DNA of 64,000 nucleotides from a virus. The DNA lies in IMG/VR virus record IMGVR_UViG_3300010885_020782, positions 32,001-96,000 of that record. One strand, 5' to 3'. Shown in pieces: positions 3,322 through 40,408 of this stretch. Below the pieces are notes generated by a model that searched no databases, was not told the DNA's origin, and saw only the letters and a program-made list of their open reading frames with translations. A program made the translations under genes and the position numbers. Positions within the stretch are counted from its first letter, which is position 1. Every line of letters starts with the position of its first letter.

Positions 3322-3394
3322 TTTTACTCCTAATGTCATTAAGTATATATACTAGCAGAAATATTTAAGTTTTTTGTTTTTTCTTGCTAGTAAC

Positions 3395-23301: not shown

Positions 23302-26300
23302 TTAGGTAAGTAAGCGAAGGAGTTTTGACATCTGGCTAGAAATCTCTCCCTGGTTGAAATAGTCCCCACCAGACATAAAAGTCTTTAGCCCTTGCGTAGC
23401 CTCAGCCGCGTCCTTATCACCAATTTTGTCTTTTACACGGGAAATCATATCTCGCATAAGGTCTTGTAGTACGGGTGGGACATCAGAAAAACGAATTTTT
23501 TGAGCATCTTTTCCAAAGGCAAAAGGTAAGTTTGCAATGGTCTTGCCAAGCATTCCAGCCGTAATTCGAACGTTTTCTAAAGATTGAGCATTTAGTGCCC
23601 CAGAGTCAAGACGGTCAACCATGCCAAGAAGTTCGCCAGCAGCCTTAGCAGATGCTAGATAATCACCAGTGTCACCTAGTTGTTCTATTTTCTCAATTTT
23701 GGCAAGGGCTTCAGCAGAACCATTTGGTCCTAAGTCAGCCTTAAGTCTTGCCAGCACAGTGCGGAATTTTCCTGAAGTATCTCTAGGCTGAGTCTTTCCA
23801 GGAACATACTTTCCACCAACCTTGCGCTCTACTTGACGCTTAGCCTTAAGTTCTTGTTTTAGAGCCTTAAGTTCTTCATCTGAGAGGTCTTTAATATCTT
23901 TATCAGTAATTTTAACTACTGGCTTTTCAACTCCAACAGGTGCAGGGGTTGCTGGTTGAGTAGGAACTTCTGCTTCTGGTGCTGCCGCAGTAATTGGTCC
24001 GCCAACTACCCAGGCATCGCAGGTGCGAGATGATGCACACTTAAAATCAAATGCTTCGCAGTATCCAAGTTCTGCTGTATCAATTGCATCCCAAGCATTT
24101 GCCTTACTTGAATCTCCTGCTTCTAAACCAGCAGAGATACAGTCCAACATTTTTGGTGTACGGATAAACATTACACAGTTTCCACATACAGATTTTTTAG
24201 CCTCTTGAATATCTACAGACCAACGAGTTGCTTTGGCTTGCCAAAACTTATCATTAGGTTCTTGTGGATTAAGAGGACCATAGCCACCATTGTCAATTGC
24301 CTTTTGGCGATTGGCTAAGTTGATAGAAATATCTCCCGTTGCAGGAGGGCAAGCGTCAGCAGAATCTGCTGATACTGGTGCCTGACCCCCCTCAACGAAA
24401 GGGAGTTCTTTAACATCTCCTGATGCTAAAACTGCTTCTACAATTGCAATTCTTTCACGCAAACTTGCAGTTACAGTAGTGTCTGATGCTTCTTTCCATG
24501 CTTCAGGAATAATATCTTTGCGGTCTAGAGCGCGAGCCATTTTAACAATATGGCGACGAACTAGTCCACGCTTTCCTGGCTTAGCGCGGCCAAAAGCGTG
24601 AATTGCATTACGCAAATCGCTTTCGTTACGAATAGGGAAAGAGCCATCCTTAAGTGCCTTTCCTTCTTCAGCCAATTTAATACGTTCACGACGTGGGATT
24701 ATTGCTAACTCAGTTGTGTCGTCGTCCAGCATCTGAGTCATGTAAAAAGAATCTGCATCCTTGATACTTTTAAAACGCTTTGAAAGTTCTCCTGCTTTTA
24801 CAGCAGCAGTCATTGATTCCATACGAGCCTTTGCATCATTAGCAGCAGCAACTAGTGGTTCAGTTGTTACTGACTCAACGCGGTCTAGGCGAGCCTGAAT
24901 ATCTGCAAGAGGGTCATGCTTTAGTTGAGCAAGAACACTTGCACCTGCTGCAACAAGAGCCATTACCTGGCCTGATGCAACGCGAGCGCGAGCAATTGGG
25001 AATCCTGGAACGTTTACTTGGCAAACAGCAACAAGTTCAAGACCACCCTTAATTGGACGCCAATCACCTGATGGTGCTGATGCACGAAGTGAACGAATCT
25101 GTTCTGGAGTTGTCCCTGGGCGTAGTGCACCAGAAACATAAATTCCGTATGCGTCTTCACCTGCATGAACATCTGCAATTGCTGAAGCAGTGTCGTCATA
25201 GTGACGAACAGCCTCTGATGCTGATGCTTCAAGTGAAGCGTGTCCACCAGCAAGAGTTAGTTGACCAACAGGCACATCGGCGCCTTCTTCAGTCTTTACA
25301 ACTCCTGTATGGAAGTAGGCGTAGTTGCTACGACTACGAGGTGGCTTTGTTCCAAAAGCCATTCCAATGTGGTCAACGTGCCATGCGGCAATGTGACCAT
25401 AAACTTTTCCATCATCAGTTACTGTCAGAGCAGTTGGCTTTGTCAACTTAGGGTTGTCGAACCACTCTTTTGGTGGAGTTACTGGAATCATTCCAGCAAC
25501 TAGTCCACAAGCGACAAGTGCTGATGCGTCGAGAGGGTTTACACCTTCGACATATACACCGTCAGATAGCATTGCTTTTTCCTCCTGCTCTGGGGCCTTT
25601 GCTTCAGCAATCTTAATGGTGCATTCCTGAAACGCTGGCTTTGGGACAATAGTTACAGCCATAACTCTTGCCTTTGTTATCTTCATTTTACCTGCTCCGA
25701 CCTTGGTGTCAGCGCCAGGTTCTGAAGCATTTGTTTCTTCATCTGCTTCAAAATTATCCATATCAGCGGATACGCCACGGATAAACCCACCGCGAACTAG
25801 TCTTTCCGCTTCTTTTCCGTGCTCTCCAGTATCAAACCAGCCACGAGCATTTCCAATACCGTTTTCTGTTCTTTCCATCTCGGTAATCTTGCCCACAACA
25901 ACTGACCCAGAATGTCCCTCGCCAGTAGCAATTTGCCACATCAAAGGAAGAGGAAGTTCACGCATTGTGATTACTCCACTATCAAATTTACGTCCATCTC
26001 CAGACTCAACTCCTTCTGGAATCACTAGAGGAATAAAGAATGGTGCGCCTTTTTCCCCAGTAGGAGCAGACTCTGTCTGCTGTGCACGCCATTCGGCAGA
26101 TGCAATAACTGAATCCTTTGAAATGATAAAGTCATTGCTATACAAGCGTTTTCCACTTGCAGTGACTTTATCAATTTGACGATGTTCTTTATCGCCAGTC
26201 CACATACCTGTTGCTTCGTGATGACGAAGAGCACAATAGCCTTTAGCACGAGGACCCATGTATTTAGAAAGTTGACGAACGCAGCGTGTCCAGTCTCCTG

Positions 26301-28974
26301 GAGTATTCCAACGAATCTTTGCTGCACCTTTTCCGTGTAGCCAATAGTCACGAAGGTCTTCTGCATTACCACGGTTCTTATCAATACCGCCCGCAGCCAT
26401 CATTGAAACAATTGCTGAAGCAGTTGCTGCTTCTGGACCATCAATCTGTCCCAAAACATCTGCCAAAGTTGGGTTATCTAAAACAACAACTGGTGGTGGT
26501 GTAGGGCTGTTTAGGTCATTAAGAATTGCTTCATCCTTAACCCATTTACTTTCTTTACGCTTAAAAGTTGTAGGAACTTCTGATTGAGAATTTTTTGGAA
26601 CAAGAGCAATAAGGTCCATTACAGCCTGTGCATCATCTGGTGCAACAATAGCCATATAGACAGGTGGAACATCAGAAGTATCTGGAGTAAGTTCAACGTT
26701 TTCTCCAGATGCAATAATTGCTGAAGCAGTCTTTGGCTTATCAACAATAGTTCCAGAAGAAGTCATCATCTTGCCAGCAGGAACTACAACACCTTTACGT
26801 CCATAGTAGACAGTTCCATCAGCAGCCTTATACTCTCTAATTCCGTCATAATTTTTGTCATATTTTTCTTTAGAAGTTCCAAGTTCACCAGTATCTCTAA
26901 GAGCACCATAAGACTCTCCTGGTTTAACTACAGCACCAGCATACTTATATCCTTCTTTAGGAATTTCTACATAGACACCCTTGATAGGGGTTCCTTCTTT
27001 ATCTGTTTCAACAGGATTTCCGTTAATCATTGCTGTATAAATTGGAGCCTGTGGTGTACCAGTTTGAACTACTCCATTAGGAAGTGTCTTACTTGTAGAT
27101 ACAGTCTTTGCTGGAGCGGCAGGCTGAGCAGTTGGCTTAGAAAAACCTTTTGCTGGTTGCTGATATGCAGGACTAGTCATAGAAGGCATTGCTTCTTTGT
27201 TTTTAATAAAATTGCCAACACTAGATGTCTTATCTTTATATGCCTCAACTGAATTTGGATTAATACCAGCAAGGTCAGGGCGATACCAGATAGCGTTTGG
27301 ATAACTTACTTCACCTGTAGGAGAAACAACTTTCTTTTCAAGAAAGTTTCTTAGCAATGGATTGTTATAAGCATTAGGTGTCTGATAAGCATTTTTTGCA
27401 GTAAGTGGTGCAGGAGGAGTTGCTGGAGCCTGAGTCCCCGCTTTAAGACTTGCAGCACGCTCTCCACCAACAAAATTAGGGTAGTCAGCAACAACGGTAG
27501 ATGTTTGCTGAGGTGTCATAGAAGACATACGCTCTGGAAGACGAGCACCTGCTTTATCGGCAGGAGGTTTTGTTTCGCCAAGAATATTACGAGTTAATGC
27601 TTTTGCTTGCTCTGGAGTTGGAGCAGATGCTTCTGGTGCTTCTACAAATCCTTCGGCTTCTTGAGTAAGGTTTCCTGGAACATCAACAGTTACGCCATTA
27701 TCTAATTCAACTCTGACAGTCTGAGTATCAGCATTCATTCCAACAATCTTGCCTGTGTATTTAGACTTTCCACCAATAACAACTTGTGAACCAGCCTTAG
27801 CAAACATACCTAGTTTGTTGCGAACCTGTCCGCTAGCGTTCTGTGAGCGTTCTGCTGGGGTATATTTTCCATCGCCTTTTTGAATATCTCCAGTAGGTGC
27901 ATCCCCTTGTGTAGGAGCAGCAACTGGTGCGCCAACAGCAAACATAGCCTCTTCATACTCTGGGTCATCGCCCATAGATAGACGATAAATTTCTTCCCAG
28001 TCAATATCATCTACTGCTTCTGATACAAGCCCTGACTCTTCAGGATTTACTTGAGTGACACCAACATACTTATATGGGTCAACATCAAACATTCCAGAGA
28101 TTGCAATAGCAGATTCAATATCTACAGGAACGTGCATCTTTTCTACAACATCTGAAGCGTCATCTAATGATTTGTCGTATGTGAGGAAGTCATGGTTAAG
28201 GTTTCCAAGGTCTTCCCACATTCCGTCATCCCAAACAGCAACTTCTCCTGTTGGTTCACACTTATAAAGACGGTCAATACCTGTACCATCTAAACGAATA
28301 CGAATAAAAAATTCTGGAGCAAGTTCTGCTGGTAAAGTGCGAGCAAGTTCAAAAGCATTTAATTCTACTGCTGTAGGGTCATTCTGCTCGGACATGATGT
28401 ATCGGTATGAAGCAGTAATAGAGTTTGATTGCGCTTTTTTGTTTTCACGTTCAACAATTGCTGATGCCCAGCGTTTTGCGGCATCCCCGCCCCAAAGAGC
28501 CCAGGCAATACGACCATTAGATGGATAAGACTTCTGACCTGGCTTGTAACCAGTGCCTTTCTTATCCACTTCGTGGCGTGGGAAATATTTTGCAATATGA
28601 CGAATCTTTTTAATGCCAATCTGTCCACCCTTAGCAAGAGTGCGAGCAGTATTCATACCAACTGGTGTGCCACCGCGGTGATGTTCTTTATGCCAATCTA
28701 AAGCACGCTGTGCTTCAGCCTTAACAGCATCTGGAATCGTATACATACGGTCATTGCTTGAGAAGACTTTAATATCTAAATCTGTTGTTGCAGATAATGC
28801 TAGTTCGTAAGGCACTGAGTCAGGCTTATCTTGGTGCCCTTCTGGAACGAATGAAGCCAGCACTGTAGAAGCAGTGCTTATGTTAGATACAAGATTCTGT
28901 TTTTCGTTAACAAAAACAGCCGTGTTATCAATTACAAATAGAACTTCATCGCCTTTGCGACCTACGAACTTCAT
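23302..28974 (-). CDS. capsid maturation protease within an 1890-aa multidomain head protein
   Basis: Protease core IPEGVESGDGR...GHSGSVVVG...IRGVSAD (His/Ser) at about 25620-26045, plus several small head-associated modules. Confidence 0.8.
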   Translation of the reverse strand: MKFVGRKGDEVLFVIDNTAVFVNEKQNLVSNISTASTVLASFVPEGHQDKPDSVPYELALSATTDLDIKVFSSNDRMYTIPDAVKAEAQRALDWHKEHHRGGTPVGMNTARTLAKGGQIGIKKIRHIAKYFPRHEVDKKGTGYKPGQKSYPSNGRIAWALWGGDAAKRWASAIVERENKKAQSNSITASYRYIMSEQNDPTAVELNAFELARTLPAELAPEFFIRIRLDGTGIDRLYKCEPTGEVAVWDDGMWEDLGNLNHDFLTYDKSLDDASDVVEKMHVPVDIESAIAISGMFDVDPYKYVGVTQVNPEESGLVSEAVDDIDWEEIYRLSMGDDPEYEEAMFAVGAPVAAPTQGDAPTGDIQKGDGKYTPAERSQNASGQVRNKLGMFAKAGSQVVIGGKSKYTGKIVGMNADTQTVRVELDNGVTVDVPGNLTQEAEGFVEAPEASAPTPEQAKALTRNILGETKPPADKAGARLPERMSSMTPQQTSTVVADYPNFVGGERAASLKAGTQAPATPPAPLTAKNAYQTPNAYNNPLLRNFLEKKVVSPTGEVSYPNAIWYRPDLAGINPNSVEAYKDKTSSVGNFIKNKEAMPSMTSPAYQQPAKGFSKPTAQPAAPAKTVSTSKTLPNGVVQTGTPQAPIYTAMINGNPVETDKEGTPIKGVYVEIPKEGYKYAGAVVKPGESYGALRDTGELGTSKEKYDKNYDGIREYKAADGTVYYGRKGVVVPAGKMMTSSGTIVDKPKTASAIIASGENVELTPDTSDVPPVYMAIVAPDDAQAVMDLIALVPKNSQSEVPTTFKRKESKWVKDEAILNDLNSPTPPPVVVLDNPTLADVLGQIDGPEAATASAIVSMMAAGGIDKNRGNAEDLRDYWLHGKGAAKIRWNTPGDWTRCVRQLSKYMGPRAKGYCALRHHEATGMWTGDKEHRQIDKVTASGKRLYSNDFIISKDSVIASAEWRAQQTESAPTGEKGAPFFIPLVIPEGVESGDGRKFDSGVITMRELPLPLMWQIATGEGHSGSVVVGKITEMERTENGIGNARGWFDTGEHGKEAERLVRGGFIRGVSADMDNFEADEETNASEPGADTKVGAGKMKITKARVMAVTIVPKPAFQECTIKIAEAKAPEQEEKAMLSDGVYVEGVNPLDASALVACGLVAGMIPVTPPKEWFDNPKLTKPTALTVTDDGKVYGHIAAWHVDHIGMAFGTKPPRSRSNYAYFHTGVVKTEEGADVPVGQLTLAGGHASLEASASEAVRHYDDTASAIADVHAGEDAYGIYVSGALRPGTTPEQIRSLRASAPSGDWRPIKGGLELVAVCQVNVPGFPIARARVASGQVMALVAAGASVLAQLKHDPLADIQARLDRVESVTTEPLVAAANDAKARMESMTAAVKAGELSKRFKSIKDADSFYMTQMLDDDTTELAIIPRRERIKLAEEGKALKDGSFPIRNESDLRNAIHAFGRAKPGKRGLVRRHIVKMARALDRKDIIPEAWKEASDTTVTASLRERIAIVEAVLASGDVKELPFVEGGQAPVSADSADACPPATGDISINLANRQKAIDNGGYGPLNPQEPNDKFWQAKATRWSVDIQEAKKSVCGNCVMFIRTPKMLDCISAGLEAGDSSKANAWDAIDTAELGYCEAFDFKCASSRTCDAWVVGGPITAAAPEAEVPTQPATPAPVGVEKPVVKITDKDIKDLSDEELKALKQELKAKRQVERKVGGKYVPGKTQPRDTSGKFRTVLARLKADLGPNGSAEALAKIEKIEQLGDTGDYLASAKAAGELLGMVDRLDSGALNAQSLENVRITAGMLGKTIANLPFAFGKDAQKIRFSDVPPVLQDLMRDMISRVKDKIGDKDAAEATQGLKTFMSGGDYFNQGEISSQMSKLLRLLT

Positions 28975-29453: not shown

Positions 29454-32400
29454 CTATTCCTTGTTCTCGTCAGCGATTTCTTTACCAGTTTTGCCGTATT
29501 TACCTACGCCAGAACCTGGTTTCTTGCCTTCAAGAATGTATTCAAGAATCTGACTAGCACCGCCAGCAGCCTTGAAAATCATTTCTCTATCATTTCTTAG
29601 GGCCTTTAGCCATGATTGAACATATGCAGCAGTGTGCTTTGTGTCAAGGTCAAGACCGAGTTTAGCACCAATCATTGCAGCAGCAATTTCTGCCATAAGT
29701 TCTTCTGTTGCTCTATTTGGACCAGAAGGATTGCCCATAGATGTTTCAGTTTTAATTCTGTCAAATAAATCTGAACGGTCTAAGCGGTCTTTATGACCTG
29801 AACTGTGTGAAAGTTCGTGAAGAAGTGTCTTAATATATCCTGCTTGGTCTTCTCCATACTGACCACGCTCAGGCATAGTAATTCCATCAGACTCCCAGTT
29901 GTAATGAGGAGCGCTTCCAGGTGCCATCGAGACAAACTCAATTTCAGGATGGTCCTTGTAGAGTTTAAGAATTTCTGCTTCTGCCTCTGACATAGGAACT
30001 GGAACTAGTTCTGGAATTTCAGGAAGAATTAAATTATCAAACTGGTCTACGTTGTAAACCTGTAGGAATGAAGAAGATGATTTTCTAAAGTATGCAACTT
30101 CAGTAGTATCTTTTCCAGCAGCATCTTTTTTAAATACTGGCCCACCTGGCTGATAAAGAAGAATGTCAGTTGGCTTAGCGCCATCCTTCAACACTCCTCC
30201 CATTTCGGAGGCTTGCTTCTTACCTAACCAGCGATTGCTTGAGAAGCCACCGCGGTCTTGAGCATATGCCAAGATGAATAAGTTAATGCCGTTATATTGC
30301 TTCTTTGTTAAAGGATTAAATGGAAGGCTGCCAAGCATTGCTTTCCACTTTGCTTCCCAAGGAAGAACGCCATTTTCAATATCAGCAAATATGTCATCAA
30401 GAAGTTGTTGCTTTATATCTTCAACTTTCTTTTCTTTCCATGCTTTCTTGTCGTCGTCAGAGAACTTAGTTTTCTTTACGACTTCTTTTTGCTCTGGCAA
30501 ATCTTCTTCAGAAGGTGTAGCCTGGTTTAAACGAGTTCCTTCAGATGAAGAAGGAGTTTCGGTTGACTCTTCGTATTCTAATTTAGGAGGTCTTTGATTT
30601 CTAGGTCCTTCAAATGCCTTTGGAATCTCTCCATTAGGGCCAACAGGGAATACGTTGTTTGCTTGCCACTTACGAATAACTCCATTTGGATGCTCTTCTG
30701 AAGGTGGGAATTGAACAAAGATAAAGTCTAGATATACAACACCATCACGAACATCTCCACCATGCTTTTGGTCGCCAGAGAAGTTAATAACTGTTCCAAC
30801 CTGGTTTCCAACCTTGTCACGGAAGTTCTGAGAAACGTGAACTACTCGTGTAGCCTCTGCAAATCCAACTTCATCTGCTGGCTTTAATTGATTACCCATA
30901 CGGTCTTCATAACGACCAGCATTGGCACGAGCCTGTGGATTAAGTTTTACAGCAGCATCAACAATTACGCGGTCACTGTAGCGAGAACTTCTCTTTCCAT
31001 AACCACGGCCTTTTCTCTTGCTCTTTTCAGCATCTTCTGGCGCGGCTGCTCTCTTGTTTGCTTCCTCTGTTGTCTGGTCTTCAATGCCAGGACGACGTGG
31101 GTTTGTGATGTCAGAGCCTTTGTCAAATTTACGCTCGTAAATGTTTCCGTCTCGTGGGTCACGAACGCGGAATAGCAACTTACCTTTTTCAGTTGGATGT
31201 TGATAAATCTCAACAATTTCTTCATAAACTTTATTAACATTGTGCTTAATAAAGTCACCAACCTGTAGGTCTTTTGCATCTGTATTAGGGAGCAAACCTG
31301 TAGAATCAAGAATAGCATCGTTACTGATACGAATTGCATCCAACTCTGCTTGACGCTCTGGACTAACCTTGCGTGGTTTAGAAGACTTCTTTCCTAAATC
31401 TTCAGGAACTTCTGCTGAAGAATATGCATCTGCTGAACGACTAATGAACTCGCGTCCACTTGATTCTGCTTCTGAGCGAGAGGTGTGAACTGTCTTTTGG
31501 ACATCAATAACATCTCCATCTGAATCTATAAGAGCAGAGTCTGATGTGTATTCAGGCTTATCTTTATCTGGAGATGATGGAGTAATTTGAATGTCTCCAG
31601 TAAATCCACCAGGCAAATCTGAGATTTCAACACGCTGAGGAGCACTGTCAGCGTTGGCTGGAACTGTTCCACGAGATACAGGAGTATCTTCTTGCTTAGT
31701 GGCTTCTTCGCCTTGCTCCTTGGCTTTCTGTGCCTCTGTAGAACGAACATGGTCTTGAATAAGAGCCTTACCTTCAGCCTCAGCGCCTTCACGAGTGCGA
31801 TATGAGTCTTCTACCTGATATGCAACATCCCCGTTGTCATCAAAGAATGTAGCAACCATCTTGTATCTACCATCTTCTGATGGCTCAACCTTAACAGTTG
31901 CACTTCCTGTAGAAACTGGAACGTATTGATTAGATGACTCACCGTCAGTGGCACTGTCATTAATTGGAGAATCTGTCGTATCTTCTGGAAGAAGCAAGTC
32001 ATCTGGATTCTTAGGACGACGAACGCCATCCATCTTTGTTGGAGCCCAGTATTCAACCATGTGAATCTCGCCGTTTTCAAGGTCAGCGCGATATGCACGA
32101 ACTCGTCCTGCTTGGAATCCAAAGTCTTCACCAGCGCGAACTGCAACAACTTGATACATACGGTCTCCGCTAGCAGATGCCATAAAGTCACCTGGTAGAA
32201 GGTCTTTCATACGAATATCTTCACGAGGAAGTAGTGTTGTATTTGCATCATCTACTGCCCACTCACGAGGCATCAACTTCATCTTGCCCTGTGGATATGT
32301 TCCAGCACCCTCAAAGTCAATAACTGCTGGCTCTGTAGATGTCTCACTCTTTTCAGATTCTTGCTGACCATCTGGGTTTGGCTTTGCAGCACCCTTTGCA

Positions 32401-35400
32401 TCATCAATAACTTTATCTAAATCAACTTTCTTTCCAGCAAGTGCATCTTGGAATGCTTTAGCAGCAGCAAAGTCAGCCATCTTTTGTTCGTAGTCAGCCA
32501 TAGCAGTCTGGAACTCTGTTTGAGCATTTTCCCAATCGGCTTGACGAGCATCTACATCAAATGTATCTGCGCCAGTCTTTTCCTTACTTGCTTGGTCAGC
32601 AAGTTTAGTAAAGAGTTGTGCAGTTGCTTCAGAATCATAATCAGCAGAGTGCGCTCTTTCTAAATCAATTCCAAAGTGTGCAGCAAGACTTGTAAGTTTA
32701 TTGTCTTTTTCACCGTTGTATACATAAGTAGGTGCAGATGCATCATCTTTAAGAACATCTCGCGCAATAGGCAGTGTATCTAAAAGACCAGCAGGTGAGT
32801 ATGGTGTGCCATGCTTATCTGCCATACGACGAGCAACTTCATCATCAAAGACCATGTTGTGTGCAGCAAGAAGAGGATTCTCTCCAGCCCAAGCAGCGAA
32901 CTGCTCGTGTGCACTCTTCTGGTCAGGCTGAGAGGCTAAGAACTCGTCTGTAAGTTTTTCTCCATCGCCATTAACAGCGTTTGGCTTACCAGCAGTATCT
33001 CTTGAAGCATAGGTTCCTTCAATAGAACGACCTGGATTCATAAATACATTAAATCGGTCAACAATTTTTCCATTAACAACTTTTACAGCGCCTAGTTGCC
33101 ATGGCTCATTGCCATCAGCAGCATCTACGCCAGTTGTTTCATAATCAAAGAAAATAATTTCTCGGTCTTTAATAAGTTCACGGAACTTATCCCAATCGCC
33201 ACCTGCTTCACGAGCAATAGCAGCAAACTCGCCTTGGAACGCTGGCATTGTTGGTGAGCGAGGAGACTTTGGCTTCTTTACAACTGTTGCTTTAGTTGCA
33301 GTAGCGTCGGCTGTATCAGAGTCAGTTGCGGATGGCTCAATAGTTGGAAGTTCTTTTGGAACTTCCCACTTAGATGCAACATCAGCAATTTCTTTTTCAT
33401 ACTCTGCACGCTTAGCAGGGTCTTTATCTGGAACCCAGTTTCCCTTAGCGTTTGTCTTAGATGGTTGATGAATTTCTGGAAGTTCACCCTTTGCAGGTGC
33501 TTCAACATTTCTAATTACATCAATGTCAGTTCCGACTTTCCATTCCTTACGCTGTGAAACGTGTCCTGGATAGTAACCTTCAACGCTAACAAATCCTGGC
33601 TTTGTTGTCTCGTCTGTAAAGGTGCGCTCAATAACAAAGTGACCCTTTTCTGGCTTAGCAGAAACATCACCTGGTTGTAGGTCAGCAGCCTTAACACGAA
33701 CTTGATGTGGAGCCTTTGTATTGTCTTTATTTGTTGGGTCTTCAAAACGAGCAATCGCTTCTGCTTTTCTTGCGTTGTATTCTTCCCACGCTGCATCAAG
33801 TCTTGCTTGGTCTTCTGGCTTAGACATAGCCCATTTGCCATCTTTGTTTTTATATGGCTTACCAAAGTCTTTTGCAAATGGCTTGCTAAGTTCTGGCAAG
33901 TCTCCCTTTTCAGGAGCCTGTGCACCACGAATAACAGTCATTTCTGTAGAAGCGTTCCACTTCTTTGTATTTTGTGTAACGTGTCCTGGATAGTAACCAG
34001 CAATCTCTAACTTGCTTGGGTCTCCTGGGAAAGGTCCACCAACAGATTCAATTACAAAGTGGTCATCAGCAGTAATATCACCAGGCTGTAAATCAGAAAC
34101 CTTAGACACAATGCGATAAGGACCAGTTACGTTATCTGGCTCTAAGTTTGGAGACTTAGGGGATGCCTCAATACCATCTGGGATTTCTTGTTCAGATGAG
34201 ACTTCAAAGTCAGAATCTAAGAAACCATCAAGTTGCTTTTGTAAACGAGCCATATCTTCATCATCAAGATATTGCTGCTCTTCCTGGGTCTTTGGAGTAG
34301 AGCCTTGCTGAGCCATCATGTCCTCAACAAGTTTGATGCCTTCTGCATTACTTACACCAATATCTGTAACTCTATCAAAAAACTCACGCTCTTCTGGAGT
34401 CATAATGCTTCTAGGGAAAGATTGACCATTAATGCTTGTACCCTTACGAAGAGCACTTAGAAGAGAGTCTAAAAATCCTTCACTAATATTTGGATTCTTA
34501 GGTGGAGTAGGGGTCTCTACAGCAATAGGTGCAGAAGGTGCAGCAGGTGCAGTTTGAAGTGTTGCAATCTCATCTGCAATTGTCTTCGAGATGGATTCAA
34601 CAACTGCACGCTCTTCATCAGATACGTCATTTCTCATATCAGGATTTTCTAGTGCATGAAGAATATCTTTAAGAGTCTCTAATTTATCTACAGGTGCATT
34701 CATCTTAGAAGATGATGACTCATAGTGATTAGGGTTGTAGAAGAGGTTCTTAGCAACGCTTATTGCGTCACCTGGGCTTGGAGCATATCGGTAGCCGTCA
34801 TACTCACGGCGATATAGCGCTTCATCGGCATCATAAAAATCTCCAGGAATATTTTCATCTCCAGATTGAGTGCTTGACTGCATATCTGTGTAGAAGTCTC
34901 CGCTATCTGCCCATGCAAAAAAGCGAGCAAATGCTTCAGGATTTTTACGAACTAGTTCTTCAAACTCTGGAACTACAGTTCCATCTTTGATTACTTGGTC
35001 AATGTCATAAATACCTTCGTATGCTGGGTCAAGAGGGTCGGCAGGTCCTCGTGGAGGCTCTTTCTCAGCGGGCTTCTTTGTATAACTCTCACGCTGCCAC
35101 TTACGATGAGCAGCAATAATTTTTTTGTTCTCTTCAATTTCTTGTTCTGGTGTGACAATCTTTGCAATTGGCTGTTCTTGACCGACAACTTCTTGCTTCT
35201 GTCCTTCAAAGCCTTCATCTGCAATTTTCTTAGTAAGAGCGTTTGTATCTACGCCTTGTAGTTGCAATGCATCACGAACTGCTTCGCCTGGAACATCTGC
35301 AACAAACTCTTCACCAGAGTCTGTCTTAAGTGAAATCTTTGCAGTTCCTGGAATGTCATTACCTGGCTCAAGAGCGCGAGTAAATTCTTTTTCTAGTTCT

Positions 35401-37361
35401 GGTGTAGGAATGTTCTGTGCAATAAATACAGGGTTGTCACTAAAACCTTCTGGAAGGTTAGGGTCTGGATTTTCTGCTGTTACTTTCTTCCACGCAGCGT
35501 ATGGTTCTGGGCTAAGGGATGCGTAGCCAATAGGCATTTCAACTTGTTCATTCTTTGGAAGGTAAGGAGTGTGGTCCTCTGATTCCATAAAGCGAGCAAG
35601 TTCGCTCTCTGACAAACCTTCTAGAAGTACAGGAAGTGGAGCAGCATCAAACTTTTCTGCATCAAATGCAGGTTCTTCTGTTGCTGGCTCAATGTCTGGG
35701 CCAAGTTCTTTTGTCTCACGGATAAATGCTTTATCAAGTTCAGGAGTTGGCTCCGAGATAGTTTCTTGCTTGCGTGAGGCAATAAGATTATCTTCGTTTT
35801 CAGATGTTCCAAGTTGCTTGTCGTAAATGCGGGCAACTTCTAACTCTGGGTCTCCGCCCATTTCTTGAAGTGCAAGGTAAAGATTTTCAACAGGAACTAA
35901 TTGTTCTCCATCATAAGTATCAATGTTTCCGTAGCCAGTAGCGTTCTGACCTTCCTTCTTAGGAAGAAGTCCTTCTTCCATAGCGGCAATAAGGTCGCGC
36001 TCATCTGCATTCTGTGCAATTACTGTTGGGTCTTCGTATGACTCTTCAATGTCTGCATCAGGGTCTTTAGAAATCTTGTAAGCGCCTTCAGGGTAGTTGA
36101 AAGCAAACTTTTTAGGGAACGCATCTCTAGCAGGGCCTTTTGCTTTTCCATCTTTATCTAACTCTACTACTTGAATATTTTCATCAGGGTTAGGAAGTTT
36201 TACACGACGCTCATCTTCTTCTCGTTCTTTTTTTCTTTTGGCGTCTGTTTTTTTAGAACTTTCCTCAAGTTCTTCATCCCAAGCATTAATTCCATCAAAT
36301 GCATCTTCCCAATCGCTAAAATTACCAATCTCTTGCGATGAGCCACTCATAAACTCAAATTCAACATTTAAAGAGCCGTCTTCGGCTTTTCTAACAACAA
36401 TCCCAGCATTCTTTTCATCAATGCCTTGCCACTTATTTTCACCAACTTTTTTGAAACCAGCAGGTGAATCAACAAACTTTAAATCTGCTTCATTGATAAT
36501 TACATCATTGTCTTCTGAAGAAACTTTTGCAGGAACTGGCGAGAAACCGTCCTTTGTAGGATTGATAATTGCAGAGATAAACTCACCCTTAGATGCAGGG
36601 ATATTTGCAATACGACCATCTGGAAGTTCTACTTGAACATCATCACCATCAGGACCATCTGCAATAGGACGACCTGTAAGGCTACGAACTTGTCCATCTT
36701 TAGCCATACGAATAAGAGCACGCATACCGCCACCCATAAAAGCAAACTGACCGAAGCGGTCACGACGCTGTAAGCGAGCACGAAGAGAACGTTCTGCTGA
36801 AGAGTTTCCATCAGCAGTAAGAGATACAAGAATGTCTTGTGGAACTGAGCCCTGTGGAAGAGATGCAAGAACTGCTGAGTAATAAGAGTGTTCTACAGAA
36901 CCAGGAGTTGCTGTATATGCAGAGGCAACAATTGACTTTACTTTTTCGTTAGTGATGCGTGAATCATCGGCATACCAGTTTGCTCGTGCTGAAATAAGAG
37001 CAGATGCTGTAAGTGTGTTCATCTTTGTTGAGCGTGGGTGCGCTACAGGGAGAAGGTCAGTATGGCTTGGCTTAATCGCAGCGACTTTATTGTTTTGAAG
37101 AAGTGTCACATATTGTGAAAGGTCCTTCATTGCGATGTGCTCGCGGATTGAGAATGGTAAATCTTTTGTTGCAACAAGTGAGCGGTGGACAACTGCAAAC
37201 GCAGCACCACGAGTTAGGCGACGAGATGTAGATGCTTCAGCATTAGTTGAGTCAATAAACTCAATAACCTTCTCACGCAAATAGGCAGCCTGTTTGAAGG
37301 TGCTGGCCTGTGCTCCATTAGGAGAGATGGCATAACCAAAGCGACGCACTACTCTACTCAT
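29454..37361 (-). CDS. 2635-aa polyvalent protein: DnaQ/DEDDh exonuclease + SH3/KOW-like repeats + ArdC-like ssDNA-binding and zincin metallopeptidase domains
   Basis: FFDYETTG...AAHNMVFD...LDTL...AHSADYD (about 32600-33165). LPW...PFNPLTKKQYNGIN...WLG.KQ (ArdC-N), then TLLHELSH...EELMAE...AAYVQSWL (about 29530-30400). Confidence 0.85.
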   Translation of the reverse strand: MSRVVRRFGYAISPNGAQASTFKQAAYLREKVIEFIDSTNAEASTSRRLTRGAAFAVVHRSLVATKDLPFSIREHIAMKDLSQYVTLLQNNKVAAIKPSHTDLLPVAHPRSTKMNTLTASALISARANWYADDSRITNEKVKSIVASAYTATPGSVEHSYYSAVLASLPQGSVPQDILVSLTADGNSSAERSLRARLQRRDRFGQFAFMGGGMRALIRMAKDGQVRSLTGRPIADGPDGDDVQVELPDGRIANIPASKGEFISAIINPTKDGFSPVPAKVSSEDNDVIINEADLKFVDSPAGFKKVGENKWQGIDEKNAGIVVRKAEDGSLNVEFEFMSGSSQEIGNFSDWEDAFDGINAWDEELEESSKKTDAKRKKEREEDERRVKLPNPDENIQVVELDKDGKAKGPARDAFPKKFAFNYPEGAYKISKDPDADIEESYEDPTVIAQNADERDLIAAMEEGLLPKKEGQNATGYGNIDTYDGEQLVPVENLYLALQEMGGDPELEVARIYDKQLGTSENEDNLIASRKQETISEPTPELDKAFIRETKELGPDIEPATEEPAFDAEKFDAAPLPVLLEGLSESELARFMESEDHTPYLPKNEQVEMPIGYASLSPEPYAAWKKVTAENPDPNLPEGFSDNPVFIAQNIPTPELEKEFTRALEPGNDIPGTAKISLKTDSGEEFVADVPGEAVRDALQLQGVDTNALTKKIADEGFEGQKQEVVGQEQPIAKIVTPEQEIEENKKIIAAHRKWQRESYTKKPAEKEPPRGPADPLDPAYEGIYDIDQVIKDGTVVPEFEELVRKNPEAFARFFAWADSGDFYTDMQSSTQSGDENIPGDFYDADEALYRREYDGYRYAPSPGDAISVAKNLFYNPNHYESSSSKMNAPVDKLETLKDILHALENPDMRNDVSDEERAVVESISKTIADEIATLQTAPAAPSAPIAVETPTPPKNPNISEGFLDSLLSALRKGTSINGQSFPRSIMTPEEREFFDRVTDIGVSNAEGIKLVEDMMAQQGSTPKTQEEQQYLDDEDMARLQKQLDGFLDSDFEVSSEQEIPDGIEASPKSPNLEPDNVTGPYRIVSKVSDLQPGDITADDHFVIESVGGPFPGDPSKLEIAGYYPGHVTQNTKKWNASTEMTVIRGAQAPEKGDLPELSKPFAKDFGKPYKNKDGKWAMSKPEDQARLDAAWEEYNARKAEAIARFEDPTNKDNTKAPHQVRVKAADLQPGDVSAKPEKGHFVIERTFTDETTKPGFVSVEGYYPGHVSQRKEWKVGTDIDVIRNVEAPAKGELPEIHQPSKTNAKGNWVPDKDPAKRAEYEKEIADVASKWEVPKELPTIEPSATDSDTADATATKATVVKKPKSPRSPTMPAFQGEFAAIAREAGGDWDKFRELIKDREIIFFDYETTGVDAADGNEPWQLGAVKVVNGKIVDRFNVFMNPGRSIEGTYASRDTAGKPNAVNGDGEKLTDEFLASQPDQKSAHEQFAAWAGENPLLAAHNMVFDDEVARRMADKHGTPYSPAGLLDTLPIARDVLKDDASAPTYVYNGEKDNKLTSLAAHFGIDLERAHSADYDSEATAQLFTKLADQASKEKTGADTFDVDARQADWENAQTEFQTAMADYEQKMADFAAAKAFQDALAGKKVDLDKVIDDAKGAAKPNPDGQQESEKSETSTEPAVIDFEGAGTYPQGKMKLMPREWAVDDANTTLLPREDIRMKDLLPGDFMASASGDRMYQVVAVRAGEDFGFQAGRVRAYRADLENGEIHMVEYWAPTKMDGVRRPKNPDDLLLPEDTTDSPINDSATDGESSNQYVPVSTGSATVKVEPSEDGRYKMVATFFDDNGDVAYQVEDSYRTREGAEAEGKALIQDHVRSTEAQKAKEQGEEATKQEDTPVSRGTVPANADSAPQRVEISDLPGGFTGDIQITPSSPDKDKPEYTSDSALIDSDGDVIDVQKTVHTSRSEAESSGREFISRSADAYSSAEVPEDLGKKSSKPRKVSPERQAELDAIRISNDAILDSTGLLPNTDAKDLQVGDFIKHNVNKVYEEIVEIYQHPTEKGKLLFRVRDPRDGNIYERKFDKGSDITNPRRPGIEDQTTEEANKRAAAPEDAEKSKRKGRGYGKRSSRYSDRVIVDAAVKLNPQARANAGRYEDRMGNQLKPADEVGFAEATRVVHVSQNFRDKVGNQVGTVINFSGDQKHGGDVRDGVVYLDFIFVQFPPSEEHPNGVIRKWQANNVFPVGPNGEIPKAFEGPRNQRPPKLEYEESTETPSSSEGTRLNQATPSEEDLPEQKEVVKKTKFSDDDKKAWKEKKVEDIKQQLLDDIFADIENGVLPWEAKWKAMLGSLPFNPLTKKQYNGINLFILAYAQDRGGFSSNRWLGKKQASEMGGVLKDGAKPTDILLYQPGGPVFKKDAAGKDTTEVAYFRKSSSSFLQVYNVDQFDNLILPEIPELVPVPMSEAEAEILKLYKDHPEIEFVSMAPGSAPHYNWESDGITMPERGQYGEDQAGYIKTLLHELSHSSGHKDRLDRSDLFDRIKTETSMGNPSGPNRATEELMAEIAAAMIGAKLGLDLDTKHTAAYVQSWLKALRNDREMIFKAAGGASQILEYILEGKKPGSGVGKYGKTGKEIADENKE

Positions 37362-38659: not shown

Positions 38660-40408
38660 TTATTCTCCTTCTGGTGCTGGTGCTTGTTCACCAGTTGCTT
38701 GGTCAAGAATTTGTTGGATATCTGTCGGGATAGGTGCAACTGATGCCGCCTGTTGTGCTTGCTTAACAGCATCCATAATCTCTGGAGCAAGTGCTTGAAG
38801 CATTGCCTCAGTAAGTTCAGGTGTAATTGCTCCACGCTCAGACAAAAGACGAAGCGCCATTTCATTTGAAGTAGGTGCATCTGCTGCTGAGAAACCGTGA
38901 GCACGACGCCATGCATCAAGTGAGATTGCATTACGGTCTAGACCACTATCTGCATCTGCTGCACGGTCATTGCGTGTTGCAACTGCTGATGGGTCATACC
39001 AAATAACAATCTTCTCAACATCGGTGACGCTATATCCCTGTGCAATAAGGTATGGGCGAAGATAAACAACTGTAAGAGCATCGCAGATGAGCAACATCAT
39101 TGGCTCAATGTGTGCCTTATACAGTGCTTCATCAATCTGAAGTGCGTTTGAATACTTAACGTTTGCAAGTCCTGTTACAACATCCTTTGGAACGTCTAGT
39201 CCTTGAAGGATTCTTTCTAGAACACGGTCTGAACGCTCTGCAAGTGATGGGTCAAATGAACGCTCGAACTTAAATTGCTTAATCTTGTCGCCAAGTTCTG
39301 CTGGACCACGAATAATAAGTGGAACAACTGCTGATGCTGACTCTTCATCACGAATTGGAGTCGTCATAGCATCAATTAATTGCTCTTCAAACTCATCCTC
39401 TGCCTCCTCGGCAGTAAAGTTTGGATTCAATTCATTATCTGAATCGTATGGCTGGTCTGGGTCGCCCTGTGCAGCAACTGATAAACCATCTGGAAGATAA
39501 AGTGCGCCAGCATTTAGGCGAGAGCGTGCTGTTGCACGGAATGTGCGGTTAAGAAGTAAAAGTTCTGCACACATATCAAGCAAACCGCGAAGTGATGAAT
39601 CTGCTTCGTCTGAGTAGCGTGGGTGTGAGCGCCAGATGCGTCCTACAAATGCATTCTTTGAAAGACGATTTGTTGCGTTGTTCTGATTCTGTCCGCCAGA
39701 AGATTGCTCACGGCGACCAATGATATTAAATCCACCACGAGCATCTGCCATAACTTCATCAACGGAACGAATATCCCAAGACTCAGGTAATCCTGAACCT
39801 GGACGCTCTGGCATTTGAACTAAGTAACATTCACCAGCAACTGAAAGATTAAGTGCTGCATCTTTAAGAAGACCAGCCTGTCCACCATATGCAGAATCAA
39901 GACGAGCAAGTGCACGTTCTGCTGCTGCTCCCAATCTTGGGTCAATCTGTGTAGATGACTTTACTGAAACTGGAGTTTCATGTGCATTCTCAATAACGGC
40001 AGAGTAAATACGAATACGAGATACAACAGATGCAACTAAGTTAAATGCATATTTGATTTCACCAATTGCGTCGTAATATTCCCAAGCCTCTGCTTGCCAT
40101 GCTGACGATGCAGCAGTGCGACGATGCTTAAACTGTTCGAACTCGCCCTTGTCATTAATCTTTACTTGGGCTGCTGCGGCAGTAAGTGTTCGTGGTGTTG
40201 AATAGTTAGCAGCCTGTGCTGAGTTTGGCTGAGATAAAAATACTGATGCTGCACCAGTTACTTTTGGTGTCTGACTTAAAACTACTTGACGAGAGCGACC
40301 TGTTTGTTTTGATTTATTAGTGCGCTTCTGTGGCTTTGCTTTAGGGGTGACGGGAGTAGAAACAACCTCGGCAGATTCGCCTTGTTCATCGCGCTTGAAA
40401 ACGCCCAC
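38660..40408 (-). CDS. portal protein
   Basis: WQAEAWEYYDAIGEIKY...VSRIRIY, IWRSHPR...ADS, LNAGALYLP and SAVVPLII actinophage portal motifs. Confidence 0.88.
   Translation of the reverse strand: MGVFKRDEQGESAEVVSTPVTPKAKPQKRTNKSKQTGRSRQVVLSQTPKVTGAASVFLSQPNSAQAANYSTPRTLTAAAAQVKINDKGEFEQFKHRRTAASSAWQAEAWEYYDAIGEIKYAFNLVASVVSRIRIYSAVIENAHETPVSVKSSTQIDPRLGAAAERALARLDSAYGGQAGLLKDAALNLSVAGECYLVQMPERPGSGLPESWDIRSVDEVMADARGGFNIIGRREQSSGGQNQNNATNRLSKNAFVGRIWRSHPRYSDEADSSLRGLLDMCAELLLLNRTFRATARSRLNAGALYLPDGLSVAAQGDPDQPYDSDNELNPNFTAEEAEDEFEEQLIDAMTTPIRDEESASAVVPLIIRGPAELGDKIKQFKFERSFDPSLAERSDRVLERILQGLDVPKDVVTGLANVKYSNALQIDEALYKAHIEPMMLLICDALTVVYLRPYLIAQGYSVTDVEKIVIWYDPSAVATRNDRAADADSGLDRNAISLDAWRRAHGFSAADAPTSNEMALRLLSERGAITPELTEAMLQALAPEIMDAVKQAQQAASVAPIPTDIQQILDQATGEQAPAPEGE

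What the first reader, a model, noticed from the sequence alone, without database searches (positions are those of the whole stretch)
29454..37361. 2635-aa polyvalent protein in the head operon: DnaQ exonuclease + repeats + complete ArdC-like module
Seen: an intact DEDDh motif set (DYE...HN..FD...H.A..D, about 32600-33165), and a C-terminal ArdC-like N-domain plus zincin (HELSH at 29805-29819, EELMAE). Its N-terminus resembles the neighbouring 273-aa head protein (DLLPVAHPRS vs DLLPAAHPKS), and it has an R-D-x-x-G-x-F motif shared with the protease polyprotein. Known: ArdC of IncW plasmids is an ssDNA-binding anti-restriction protein with a metallopeptidase-like domain, and polyvalent proteins of phages and plasmids concatenate such effectors. 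Inference: its position between portal and protease suggests it is packaged, possibly cleaved by the capsid protease, and injected with the DNA to protect it or counter host defences. The DnaQ + ArdC pairing in a head gene is unusual.
Basis: partly seen in the sequence, partly recalled or inferred. Interest (0 to 1): 0.78.

Follow-up and report, generated by a model that had tools for sequence, protein, structure and literature searches.

The report
Giant multi-enzyme phage head-cargo protein
An uncultured lake phage of actinobacteria encodes, among its head genes, a real 2,635-residue cysteine-free protein that joins an intact DNA/RNA-trimming exonuclease and a complete ArdC anti-restriction unit to a conserved "header"; it is probably packed into the capsid and shot into the next host, and is a new family within an already known class.

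Summary
Window 29454-37361 (-) is one intact 2,635-aa ORF. It has a DEDDh exonuclease (aa 1391-1645; all five catalytic residues are invariant in 85 of 85 relatives) and a complete ArdC module (aa 2314-2610; colinear with the R388 ArdC structure; HExxH and EE kept). Internal repeats are present, as are both motifs shared with the neighbouring proteins.

It belongs to a large uncultured family: 391 clusters at 50% identity and 375 IMG/VR stretches. The family is defined by an N-terminal header that is always at the protein start. The gene always lies in the order portal, (Dps), DUF5824 protein, giant, p96, protease polyprotein, capsid. The cargo is shuffled: exonuclease in most, then ArdC or a PI3K-like kinase, plus helicase, primase, ADP-ribosyltransferase and Nudix.

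New indirect support for packaging:
- It has 0 Cys in 2,635 residues (P about 7e-11), like this phage's virion proteins and unlike its cytoplasmic enzymes.
- A conserved TA[SA][AG] motif also marks the capsid-precursor boundary.
- The gene is translationally coupled within a late operon.

No direct evidence of packaging, cleavage or activity exists.

It is a new variant of Iyer et al.'s (2017) polyvalent proteins. This scan has already reported the same family in at least seven other genomes.

The parts
29454..37361 (-). Whole 2,635-aa polyvalent protein gene (P0001). It has no cysteine.
37077..37325 (-). Header part 1 (aa 13-95): DUF5824-like three-helix bundle, paralogous to the 273-aa neighbour.
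   Evidence: BLASTP E 3e-8. AF2 helices at aa 21-90 with pLDDT about 80. Only generic helical-bundle matches, Z at most 7.5.
36996..37061 (-). Invariant linear motif T-DLLPxxHPRST followed by xTASAL (aa 101-122), in a predicted disordered linker. Candidate docking and prohead-protease site (TA|SA, aa 119/120).
   Evidence: Invariant D102, L103, L104, H108, P109, S111, A119, S120. pLDDT below 50 at aa 91-119. Motif statistics.
36576..36809 (-). Header part 2 (aa 185-262): GNSS..RSLRAxLQRRDRFGQFA motif plus a small beta-barrel. It is shared with the protease polyprotein and sits at the very N-terminus of Microbacterium phage Pumpernickel gp82.
   Evidence: Invariant R200, D201, R202, G204, F206, A207, G210-212; strands at aa 213-261.
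36204..36479 (-). Header part 3 (aa 295-386): beta domain plus long helix.
   Evidence: conserved in the family
35772..36116 (-). Family-specific alpha/beta module, copy 1 (aa 416-530).
   Evidence: AF2 pLDDT 77 for aa 416-725. No PDB match.
35202..35456 (-). Family-specific alpha/beta module, copy 2 (aa 636-720).
34137..35201 (-). Poorly conserved spacer (aa 721-1075), unassigned.
   Evidence: Only 14-23 of 120 relatives align here. No family hit.
33450..34136 (-). Two tandem beta-rich repeats (aa 1076-1165 and 1213-1304) that travel with the exonuclease.
   Evidence: 44% identity, E 1e-20; co-occurrence
32427..33191 (-). DEDDh (DnaQ/PolC-like) 3'-5' exonuclease domain (aa 1391-1645), with D1406, E1408, D1506, H1571, D1576.
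30642..32225 (-). Unassigned region (aa 1713-2240) with two DLxPGD Tudor/SH3-like barrels (aa 1713-1792, 2023-2098) and a conserved beta-rich domain (aa 2099-2240).
   Evidence: weak Phage_tudor hit E 0.034; conservation
30108..30419 (-). ArdC-N ssDNA-binding domain (aa 2315-2418).
29565..29918 (-). ArdC-type zincin (MPTase-PolyVal, aa 2482-2599) with H2515-E-x-x-H2519 and E2553-E2554.
   Evidence: ligands as in R388 ArdC H201, H205, E229 (PMC7213743)
37361..38182 (-). 273-aa DUF5824 protein. It is a paralogue of header part 1, its stop overlaps the giant's start by one base, and it carries two invariant DLLP motifs.
23302..28974 (-). 1,890-aa protease/scaffold polyprotein. It shares the RDxxGxF + barrel module and is enriched in TA[SA][AG].
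38660..40408 (-). Portal protein gene, the upstream anchor of the conserved gene order.
   Evidence: phrog_776 E 3.8e-108; synteny
21062..23131 (-). Major capsid protein precursor. The candidate maturation motif PVTA|AAEN (aa 258-265) lies at the boundary between the acidic N-terminal region and the body.

Best explanation
This is a phage-type polyvalent cargo protein of a roughly 127-kb siphovirus of actinobacteria.

Shown:
- It is one intact gene in the late head operon, translationally coupled to its upstream neighbour.
- It starts with a family-defining header (about 390 aa) followed by two copies of a family-specific module (to about aa 720).
- The header is built from modules also found in the adjacent DUF5824 protein and in the protease/scaffold polyprotein.
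- Behind the header lie exchangeable cargo domains. Here these are a DEDDh 3'-5' exonuclease with an intact, invariant active site and a complete ArdC unit (ssDNA-binding domain plus zincin with intact metal ligands).

Inferred:
- The header recruits a few copies into the procapsid.
- The prohead protease may trim it at the conserved TA|SA site (aa 119/120).
- The rest is stored with the DNA and ejected into the next host with or ahead of the genome.
- There the ArdC part binds single-stranded or entering DNA and blunts type I restriction.
- The exonuclease trims 3' ends of a nucleic acid whose identity is unknown. Candidates are the phage's own DNA ends or host defence RNA, DNA or signalling nucleotides.
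- The zincin may release the domains or cut a host protein.
For: Domains and active sites:
- Pfam, PHROG and PDB matches.
- The five DEDDh residues are invariant in 85 of 85 relatives.
- HExxH..EExxAE is kept in 30 of 37 ArdC modules of the family.

Family structure:
- There are 122 clusters at 90% identity and 391 at 50%.
- The header is always at the protein's N-terminus.
- Cargo changes many times on a header tree: at least 21 C-terminal swaps, 13 for the exonuclease and 5 for ArdC.
- Relatives carry ADP-ribosyltransferase, UvrD helicase, DnaG primase, Nudix and kinase-like domains. This fits the effector-delivery pattern of a constant N-terminus and a variable C-terminus.

Genomic context:
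- The order portal, (Dps), DUF5824 protein, giant, p96, protease polyprotein holds in all 80 IMG/VR loci checked.
- The same slot is occupied in DSL-LC01 (3,289 aa) and in cultured Microbacterium phage Pumpernickel (gp82).
- Start and stop overlap, and there is no promoter or terminator signal inside the module.

Other support:
- Header modules are shared with head-operon proteins.
- It has 0 Cys in 2,635 aa, against 8.8 per 1000 in the rest of the proteome (P about 7e-11).
- 151 of 222 long family members have 0 Cys.
- This phage's capsid, tape-measure and fibre proteins also have 0 Cys, whereas its polymerase, SNF2 helicase and nuclease have 6-13 per 1000.
- The phage has its own PolA with a proofreading domain, so the exonuclease is not needed for replication.

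Precedents (papers):
- Polyvalent proteins are predicted to be packaged (PMC5512222).
- The giant Burro gp27 is virion-associated (PMC7302621).
- phi24B gp47, a large polyvalent protein, is in the virion proteome (bioRxiv 10.64898/2026.04.10.717836).
- N4 vRNAP is ejected (PMC13434306).
Against: - There is no proteomic, structural or biochemical evidence for this protein or any family member.
- The header has no detectable relationship to MuF/gp7 or any solved structure.
- R388 ArdC works when simply expressed in the recipient. Neither export nor its protease activity was needed there (PMC7213743).
- ArdC-N binds ssDNA, but this phage presumably injects dsDNA.
- The TA[SA][AG] site is kept in only 144 of 207 family members that have the DLLP motif.
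- The target of the exonuclease is unknown.
- Some 'absent' cargo in the architecture tally may reflect truncated metagenomic ORFs.
Confidence: 0.6

Rival explanations
1. The protein is mainly structural or mechanical. It would be an internal head or ejection protein (inner body, DNA-spooling core, trans-envelope conduit or pilot protein) whose conserved roughly 720-aa front part does the essential job. The enzyme domains would be optional add-ons.
For: Only aa 1-720 is near-universal in the family. Several members have no recognisable enzyme domain. The slot is conserved even where cargo differs completely (DSL-LC01, Pumpernickel). phi24B gp47 was proposed to be such a conduit.
Against: The catalytic residues are under strict conservation wherever the exonuclease is present. 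Siphoviruses already have a tape-measure protein for channel formation (window 12974-16084). No membrane-spanning feature was looked for in the sequence. This rival overlaps with the best explanation rather than excluding it.
Confidence: 0.2
2. The protein is a late cytoplasmic DNA-processing enzyme that is never packaged. An example would be trimming or protecting replicated concatemer or ssDNA regions at the portal during genome packaging. In that case it is encoded in the head operon only for timing.
For: The exonuclease, helicase, primase and ssDNA-binding domains are classic DNA-metabolism activities. R388 ArdC does not need transport to act. Nothing here shows packaging.
Against: - Complete cysteine exclusion matches the virion proteins, not the phage's cytoplasmic enzymes.
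- Relatives carry ADP-ribosyltransferase and kinase-like effector domains that make little sense for packaging.
- An anti-restriction unit made late cannot protect the genome that encodes it unless it is carried over.
- Header modules are shared with protease/scaffold proteins.
Confidence: 0.15
3. The long ORF is an artefact: a mis-assembly, a fusion of separate genes or a decaying gene.
For: It comes from a metagenome-type single contig. The spacer regions are poorly conserved.
Against: Near-full-length relatives of 2,531-2,888 aa with the same three Pfam domains come from independent samples and sources (P0002-P0010, 68-87% identity in the header). There is no stop in 7.9 kb. Active-site residues are intact.
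Confidence: 0.01

Closest known systems
Phage-type polyvalent proteins (Iyer, Burroughs, Anand, de Souza, Aravind 2017, J Bacteriol; PMC5512222)
   Same: It is a huge single polypeptide that strings unrelated effector domains. The MPTase zincin acts as hub and is paired with ArdC-N. The gene lies among portal/terminase-type late genes. Packaging and delivery with the DNA are predicted.
   Different: The N-terminal header and the two aa 416-720 modules match no Pfam family, including the LPD families in Pfam. A DEDDh exonuclease is the commonest cargo, but I did not find it discussed as a polyvalent-protein domain in that paper's main text. ArdC sits at the C-terminus, in a phage. One relative (P0109) carries a DnaG/Toprim primase, which the paper says is never found in phage polyvalent proteins.
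ArdC of IncW plasmids R388/pSa (PDB 6I89, 6SNA; PMC7213743)
   Same: The alignment is colinear with residues 7-285 of the 297-aa protein (E 4.9e-31). Both domains are present, as are HExxH and the EE of the glutamate helix.
   Different: Here it is the last 12% of a 2,635-aa phage protein in a head operon, not a stand-alone leading-region plasmid gene. Anti-restriction activity was not tested.
DnaQ / PolC-type DEDDh proofreading exonucleases (PF00929; PDB 2P1J)
   Same: Exo I, II and III-epsilon motifs are present with D, E, D, H, D. The best solved relative is the PolC exonuclease domain (E 2.6e-8).
   Different: It is not attached to or next to a polymerase. The phage's PolA has its own exonuclease domain. 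Two family-specific beta repeats flank it.
Giant virion proteins of phages: N4 vRNAP, phi24B gp47, Microbacterium phage Burro gp27, P1 DarB/DdrB, T4 internal proteins with cleaved targeting sequences
   Same: These are very large or enzyme-bearing proteins carried in the capsid and delivered at infection. Some are processed by a protease. Some protect against restriction.
   Different: No sequence relationship was detected. The evidence for those proteins is experimental; here it is only comparative.
MuF / SPP1 gp7 head proteins with C-terminal toxins
   Same: The gene lies just downstream of the portal gene. The N-terminus is constant and the C-terminal effectors vary.
   Different: No MuF domain was detected by Pfam or PHROGs.
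Syntenic giants of Actinomycetia phage DSL-LC01 (3,289 aa) and Microbacterium phage Pumpernickel gp82 (2,235 aa)
   Same: They occupy the same slot between portal and protease. DSL-LC01 shares the header (29% identity over 429 aa). Pumpernickel shares the GNS..RDRFG core at its N-terminus (51% over 47 aa).
   Different: Neither carries the exonuclease or ArdC. Both are annotated 'hypothetical protein'.

Membership tests
ArdC (ArdC-N + zincin) | N-terminal ssDNA-binding ArdC-N domain (PF08401) | tested here: met
   71.1 bits against a cut-off of 22.6, aa 2315-2418. It aligns to the R388 ArdC N-domain.
ArdC (ArdC-N + zincin) | C-terminal gluzincin domain with HExxH and a glutamate-helix metal ligand | tested here: met
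   PF18818 at 96.1 bits against a cut-off of 27.5. H2515-E-L-S-H2519 and E2553-E2554 align to H201/E202/H205 and E228/E229 of R388 ArdC.
ArdC (ArdC-N + zincin) | Anti-restriction activity against type I R-M systems; ssDNA binding | not testable with these tools
   This needs binding and plating or conjugation assays.
DEDDh (DnaQ-like) 3'-5' exonuclease | Pfam RNase_T match above the curated cut-off | tested here: met
   64.8 bits against a cut-off of 24; phrog_192 E 2.9e-31.
DEDDh (DnaQ-like) 3'-5' exonuclease | Exo I (DxE), Exo II (D) and Exo III-epsilon (HxxxxD) catalytic residues | tested here: met
   D1406, E1408, D1506, H1571, D1576. All are invariant in 85 of 85 family members with the domain.
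DEDDh (DnaQ-like) 3'-5' exonuclease | Exonuclease activity and substrate (DNA or RNA) | not testable with these tools
   This needs an enzyme assay.
Phage-type polyvalent protein (Iyer et al. 2017) | Two or more functionally unrelated effector domains in one very large polypeptide, with the MPTase zincin as hub | tested here: met
   Exonuclease, ArdC-N and MPTase in 2,635 aa. Relatives add helicase, primase, ART, Nudix and kinase-like domains.
Phage-type polyvalent protein (Iyer et al. 2017) | Encoded among late virion or packaging genes of a portal-terminase phage | tested here: met
   It lies between portal and protease/capsid genes in the window and in 80 of 80 related loci.
Phage-type polyvalent protein (Iyer et al. 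2017) | Packaged in the capsid and delivered at infection | not testable with these tools
   Only indirect indicators are available: Cys exclusion, shared header modules and the candidate cleavage motif.
MuF / SPP1 gp7 head-protein family | MuF domain at the N-terminus | tested here: inconclusive
   No Pfam or PHROG MuF hit, even at E up to 1 on aa 1-430. Fold searches found nothing. Remote homology is not excluded.
DUF5824 (PF19141) | Pfam match above the cut-off | tested here: not met
   The giant's aa 1-430 gives no Pfam hit. The link is indirect, through the 273-aa neighbour: that protein scores 31.5 bits against a cut-off of 25 and aligns to the giant at E 3e-8. So the header is DUF5824-like, not a scored member.

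The most novel reading that the evidence does not exclude
The header is a modular capsid-loading tag. A DUF5824-like pro-domain plus the invariant DLLPxxHPRST docking motif would bring the protein into the procapsid. An assemblin-like prohead protease would cut it off at x-T-A|S-A, the same motif that separates the capsid protein from its scaffold-like N-terminus. After ejection, the cysteine-free cargo would act as an escort kit on the entering genome. That kit is exonuclease plus ArdC here, with helicase and primase in relatives. It would process and shield DNA ends or single-stranded stretches and destroy a nucleic-acid component of host defence. This would define a general, engineerable rule for loading arbitrary enzymes into actinophage capsids.
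Probability: 0.3. Interest if true: 0.75.

Novelty: new variant of a known kind. Interest (0 to 1): 0.55.

Why it matters
These phages infect abundant freshwater actinobacteria and spend about 6% of a 127-kb genome on this one gene. The family has hundreds of members and no experimental data.

If the header is a capsid-loading tag with a defined cleavage site, it explains how large enzymes are delivered with phage DNA in Gram-positive hosts. It would also give a handle for loading cargo into capsids.

The commonest cargo is an intact DEDDh exonuclease, which I did not find discussed among polyvalent-protein domains in the main text of the 2017 survey. This points to an unrecognised early step, either counter-defence or DNA-end processing.

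The finding also widens where ArdC, UvrD-type helicases and DnaG primases are found. They were known from conjugative elements and now appear in phage heads.

Tried and rejected
- Megablast of the gene against 50,697 phage records gave no match. tblastn of the 96-aa RDRFG/barrel segment also gave no match.
- I folded the header (aa 1-430, pLDDT 68). Foldseek against PDB gave no hit at E of 0.001 or better. BFVD gave one, an unrelated Marseillevirus SprT-like protein (E 2.9e-4, TM 0.14). VIA-align gave only generic helical bundles (Z at most 7.5) and weak Tudor/spindlin-like hints.
- I folded aa 416-725 (pLDDT 77) and found no PDB relative: Foldseek E above 1 and VIA Z at most 4.0.
- ESM Atlas on aa 1-400 gave no usable hit. 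The first try was a size-limit slip.
- Pfam and PHROGs on six sub-segments at relaxed thresholds gave only a weak Phage_tudor hint, E 0.034.
Synteny therefore came from IMG/VR loci, whose 10-kb flank often ends inside the giant gene.
- I rejected a replicative proofreading role, because the phage's PolA has its own exonuclease domain.
- I rejected the artefact or pseudogene reading.
- The looser motif [VILM]xA[SA][AG] is enriched in the polyprotein (5.8 against 1.08 per 1000 aa). In the giant it is not enriched overall. Only the site at aa 117-121 and one at aa 144-148 exist, so cleavage into many pieces is not suggested.
- Gene splits in DSL-LC01 coincide with a motif site at only one of the polyprotein boundaries (aa 1662).
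- A literature search for DUF5824 returned no papers.
Full report
**What is there.**
Window 29454-37361 on the minus strand is one open frame of 2,635 codons. The window is part of a single 127,375-bp contig.

- The capsid protein is 73% identical to that of the metagenome-assembled Actinomycetia phage DSL-LC01.
- More distantly, the capsid protein matches those of Microbacterium, Arthrobacter, Gordonia and Mycobacterium phages.
- The tail genes (tape measure, SPP1-type Dit, no sheath) indicate a siphovirus.
- All genes from portal (38660-40408) to capsid (21062-23131) lie on the minus strand and are tightly packed.
- The stop of the 273-aa gene overlaps the giant's start by one base.
- An unlisted 58-aa acidic ORF (29267-29443) bridges the giant to the next gene.
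- The consensus scan shows fewer promoter-like sites than shuffles and terminator-like sites at chance level. The block therefore reads as one late operon.

- Pfam finds RNase_T (aa 1403-1584), ArdcN (aa 2315-2418) and MPTase-PolyVal (aa 2482-2599), all far above their curated cut-offs.
- PHROGs gives 'anti-restriction protein' at 1.9e-52 and 'DNA polymerase exonuclease subunit' at 2.9e-31.
- The last 320 residues align colinearly with residues 7-285 of the 297-residue R388 ArdC structure (E 4.9e-31), including HExxH and the EE of the glutamate helix. Those are the metal ligands H201, H205 and E229 described for ArdC (PMC7213743).
- The exonuclease's nearest solved relative is the PolC proofreading domain (E 2.6e-8).
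- Its five DEDDh residues (D1406, E1408, D1506, H1571, D1576) are invariant in all 85 family members that have the domain.
- Two beta-rich repeats (aa 1081-1161 and 1218-1300; 44% identity, E 1e-20) precede the exonuclease.
- Two weaker DLxPGD copies lie at about aa 1720 and 2031. One gives a weak Phage_tudor hint.
- A further module is duplicated at aa 421-526 and 640-715.

**The family.**
A search with aa 1-430, restricted to proteins of 1,449-4,612 aa, found 122 clusters. A profile search of 1.84 billion representatives found 391 clusters at E of 0.001 or better and 197 at E of 1e-30 or better.

- The header is always at the very start of the protein, and sizes reach 7,004 aa.
- IMG/VR holds 375 matching stretches.
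- Only aa 1-720 is near-universal. The repeats plus exonuclease occur in about 70% of members, and ArdC in about 18%.
- The C-terminal module alternates between ArdC (22 of 121) and a PI3K/PI4K-like kinase-type domain (60 of 121).
- Other members add UvrD-type helicase, DnaG/Toprim primase, ADP-ribosyltransferase, Nudix, SprT, WYL, KTSC and sigma-70 region 4.
- On a FastTree of the header, the C-terminal module changes state at least 21 times, the exonuclease 13 times and ArdC 5 times. Truncated metagenomic ORFs may inflate these counts.
- The exonuclease + ArdC pairing is therefore one combination in a shuffling family, not a singular oddity.

**Context.**
In all 80 related loci the order is portal, (Dps/ferritin in some), DUF5824 protein, giant. 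Wherever the flank reaches far enough, p96 and the protease polyprotein follow.

- DSL-LC01 has a 3,289-aa gene in the same slot. It shares only the header (29% over 429 aa) and the aa 421-526 module, and has no exonuclease or ArdC.
- The cultured Microbacterium phage Pumpernickel has the same layout.
- Its 2,235-aa gp82 begins with GNS..RS.RA.LQ.RDRFG, which is 51% identical to aa 185-231 of the window protein. It ends in the same kinase-like domain.
- The slot and the core of the header therefore predate the split between soil and freshwater actinophages.

**The header.**
AlphaFold with 24 sequences gives a moderate model (pLDDT 68):
- a three-helix bundle (aa 21-90);
- a disordered linker (aa 91-119);
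- a second helical region (aa 119-197);
- a small beta-barrel (aa 213-261);
- a beta domain (aa 295-348);
- a long helix.

None of these finds a convincing solved or predicted relative.

Two short stretches are invariant across the alignment: T-DLLPxxHPRST, followed by xTASAL, and QRRDRxGxFAxGGG.

- The first stretch, with the bundle before it, is paralogous to the DUF5824 region of the 273-aa neighbour (E 3e-8).
- That neighbour's family carries a second invariant DLLP at its C-terminus. It swaps N-terminal modules with the protease polyprotein and, in P0084, with the giant itself.
- The second stretch, with its barrel, recurs in the protease polyprotein and heads Pumpernickel gp82.
- The header is thus assembled from parts that circulate among head-operon proteins. 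This fits a role in joining the assembling head.

**A candidate processing site.**

- TA[SA][AG] occurs five times in the 1,890-aa polyprotein, against 0.5 expected. None of 2,000 shuffles reached five.
- It occurs once in the giant, at aa 118-121, where A119 and S120 are invariant.
- The same motif sits at the boundary between the acidic, low-complexity N-terminus and the conserved body of the capsid protein. It reads PVTAAA in the window phage, MTAAA in DSL-LC01 and VTASA in Pumpernickel, although the flanks are not conserved. That is also where similarity to other phages' capsid proteins begins.
- Of 207 family members with the DLLP motif, 144 keep the site. Three members start exactly there, with MTASA.
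- The protease region scores as 'head maturation protease' in PHROGs (3.5e-55) and weakly as Peptidase_S78 (E 0.007).
- From general knowledge, prohead proteases share the herpesvirus assemblin fold, and assemblin cuts at (V/L/I)-x-A|S.
- This makes cleavage at TA|SA plausible, but it remains an inference. The motif is not universal, and only one DSL-LC01 gene boundary coincides with a site.

**Cysteine exclusion.**
Earlier notes on relatives (e1-5797963 and others) called them cysteine-free, so I tested this here.

- The window protein has 0 Cys in 2,635 residues. The rest of the proteome has 8.8 per 1000, giving P of about 7e-11 under independence.
- 151 of 222 long family members have none, and 216 have at most two.
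- Within this phage the capsid protein, tape measure, tail fibre and collagen-like fibres also have none. PolA, the SNF2 helicase and the PD-(D/E)XK nuclease have 6.6-12.9 per 1000.
- An enzyme-bearing protein that follows the virion pattern is independent, though indirect, support for an extracellular (virion) phase.

**Mechanism.**
The best-supported reading has these steps:
1. The protein is made late.
2. It is loaded through its header.
3. It is possibly trimmed at aa 119/120.
4. It is stored in the capsid.
5. It is ejected into the next cell.

A gene in the late operon cannot protect the genome that encodes it unless its product travels with the particle. That logic favours delivery for an ArdC unit. 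The ADP-ribosyltransferase and kinase-like cargo in relatives recalls known injected effectors.

- The exonuclease is not needed for replication, because PolA has its own exonuclease domain. Its substrate is unknown.
- Its frequent company (UvrD helicase, primase, ssDNA-binding ArdC-N) suggests work on DNA ends or single-stranded DNA at entry. A counter-defence target is equally open.
- R388 ArdC acts without being transported, and its protease activity was dispensable there.
- No virion data exist for any family member.
- Rivals are a chiefly structural ejection or internal protein (compatible with the above), a non-packaged late DNA-processing enzyme, and an artefact (excluded).

**Comparison and novelty.**
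The concept is that of Iyer et al. 2017 (PMC5512222): large multidomain proteins with MPTase and ArdC-N hubs, encoded among late genes and predicted to be packaged.

Experimental precedents for giant virion proteins are:
- Burro gp27 (PMC7302621);
- phi24B gp47;
- N4 vRNAP.

What is new is the family itself:
- It has an unannotated header and unannotated modules.
- A DEDDh exonuclease is the main cargo. I did not find this domain discussed in the survey's main text.
- ArdC, UvrD and even DnaG primase domains appear in a phage head gene. The survey states that Toprim primases are never phage-borne.
- Cysteine is excluded.
- There is a candidate shared cleavage motif.

This scan has already reported the same family in at least seven other genomes, with the same reading. 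Those are unchecked AI notes, not independent evidence. I class the finding as a new variant of a known kind, of moderate interest.

Noticed in passing
window 38184-38657 (-): A Dps/ferritin-like gene (Pfam Ferritin 4e-19; PHROG 'DNA binding protein') sits between portal and the DUF5824 protein. It is present in only about 15 of 80 related loci. DSL-LC01 has a DUF3626 protein in that place. It may be another optional head cargo or a DNA-condensing protein.
   Followed up: partly
window 37361-38182 (-) and alignment A3: The 273-aa protein is modular. It has a CWxGYKQVG..VPNCVP knuckle, a Lys/Ser-rich linker, DUF5824, DLLPxxHPRST + xTA[SA][AG]L, and a C-terminal helical domain ending in a second invariant DLLP. 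Relatives insert a Zn-ribbon domain, or replace the N-terminus with the CPPATQDI..CGNC module that lies at aa 1541-1660 of the window's protease polyprotein.
   Followed up: partly
window 29267-29443 (-): An unlisted 58-aa, very acidic ORF lies between the giant and p96. Its own RBS-like GGAG sits upstream, and a TAATG overlap joins it to p96. A tblastn homologue was not detected in the closest ArdC-type locus L004.
   Followed up: partly
related loci such as L045, L047, L023 (between the giant's stop and the p96 homologue): Loci whose giant ends in the PI3K-like kinase-type module carry an extra 250-270-aa gene (start MA[IL]x[IV]YR[VA]Y) just downstream. ArdC-type loci (the window, L004) lack it. 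It could be a partner or antidote of the kinase-type cargo.
   Followed up: partly
window 23302-28974 (-) and 21062-23131 (-): TA[SA][AG] is tenfold enriched in the 1,890-aa protease/scaffold polyprotein (5 against 0.5 expected). It also marks the boundary between the N-terminal region and the body of the capsid precursor in three diverged phages. It is a candidate maturation-cleavage motif.
   Followed up: partly
protein P0109 (relative, 2,975 aa): A family member carries a DnaG-type primase (DNAG_N + Toprim, E 4e-28) with the exonuclease and a UvrD helicase behind the same header. The 2017 survey states that Toprim primases occur only in conjugative-element polyvalent proteins.
   Followed up: no
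whole genome G000 (gene list): Virion proteins of this phage (capsid, tape measure, tail fibre, collagen-like fibres) have no cysteine at all. Replication enzymes have 6-13 per 1000 residues. Cys content might serve as a crude virion-protein predictor in this phage group.
   Followed up: partly
window 593-5679 (-): The replication block holds a PD-(D/E)XK nuclease (593-1522), an SNF2-family helicase (1519-3339) and a family A DNA polymerase with its own 3'-5' exonuclease domain (3859-5679).
   Followed up: no
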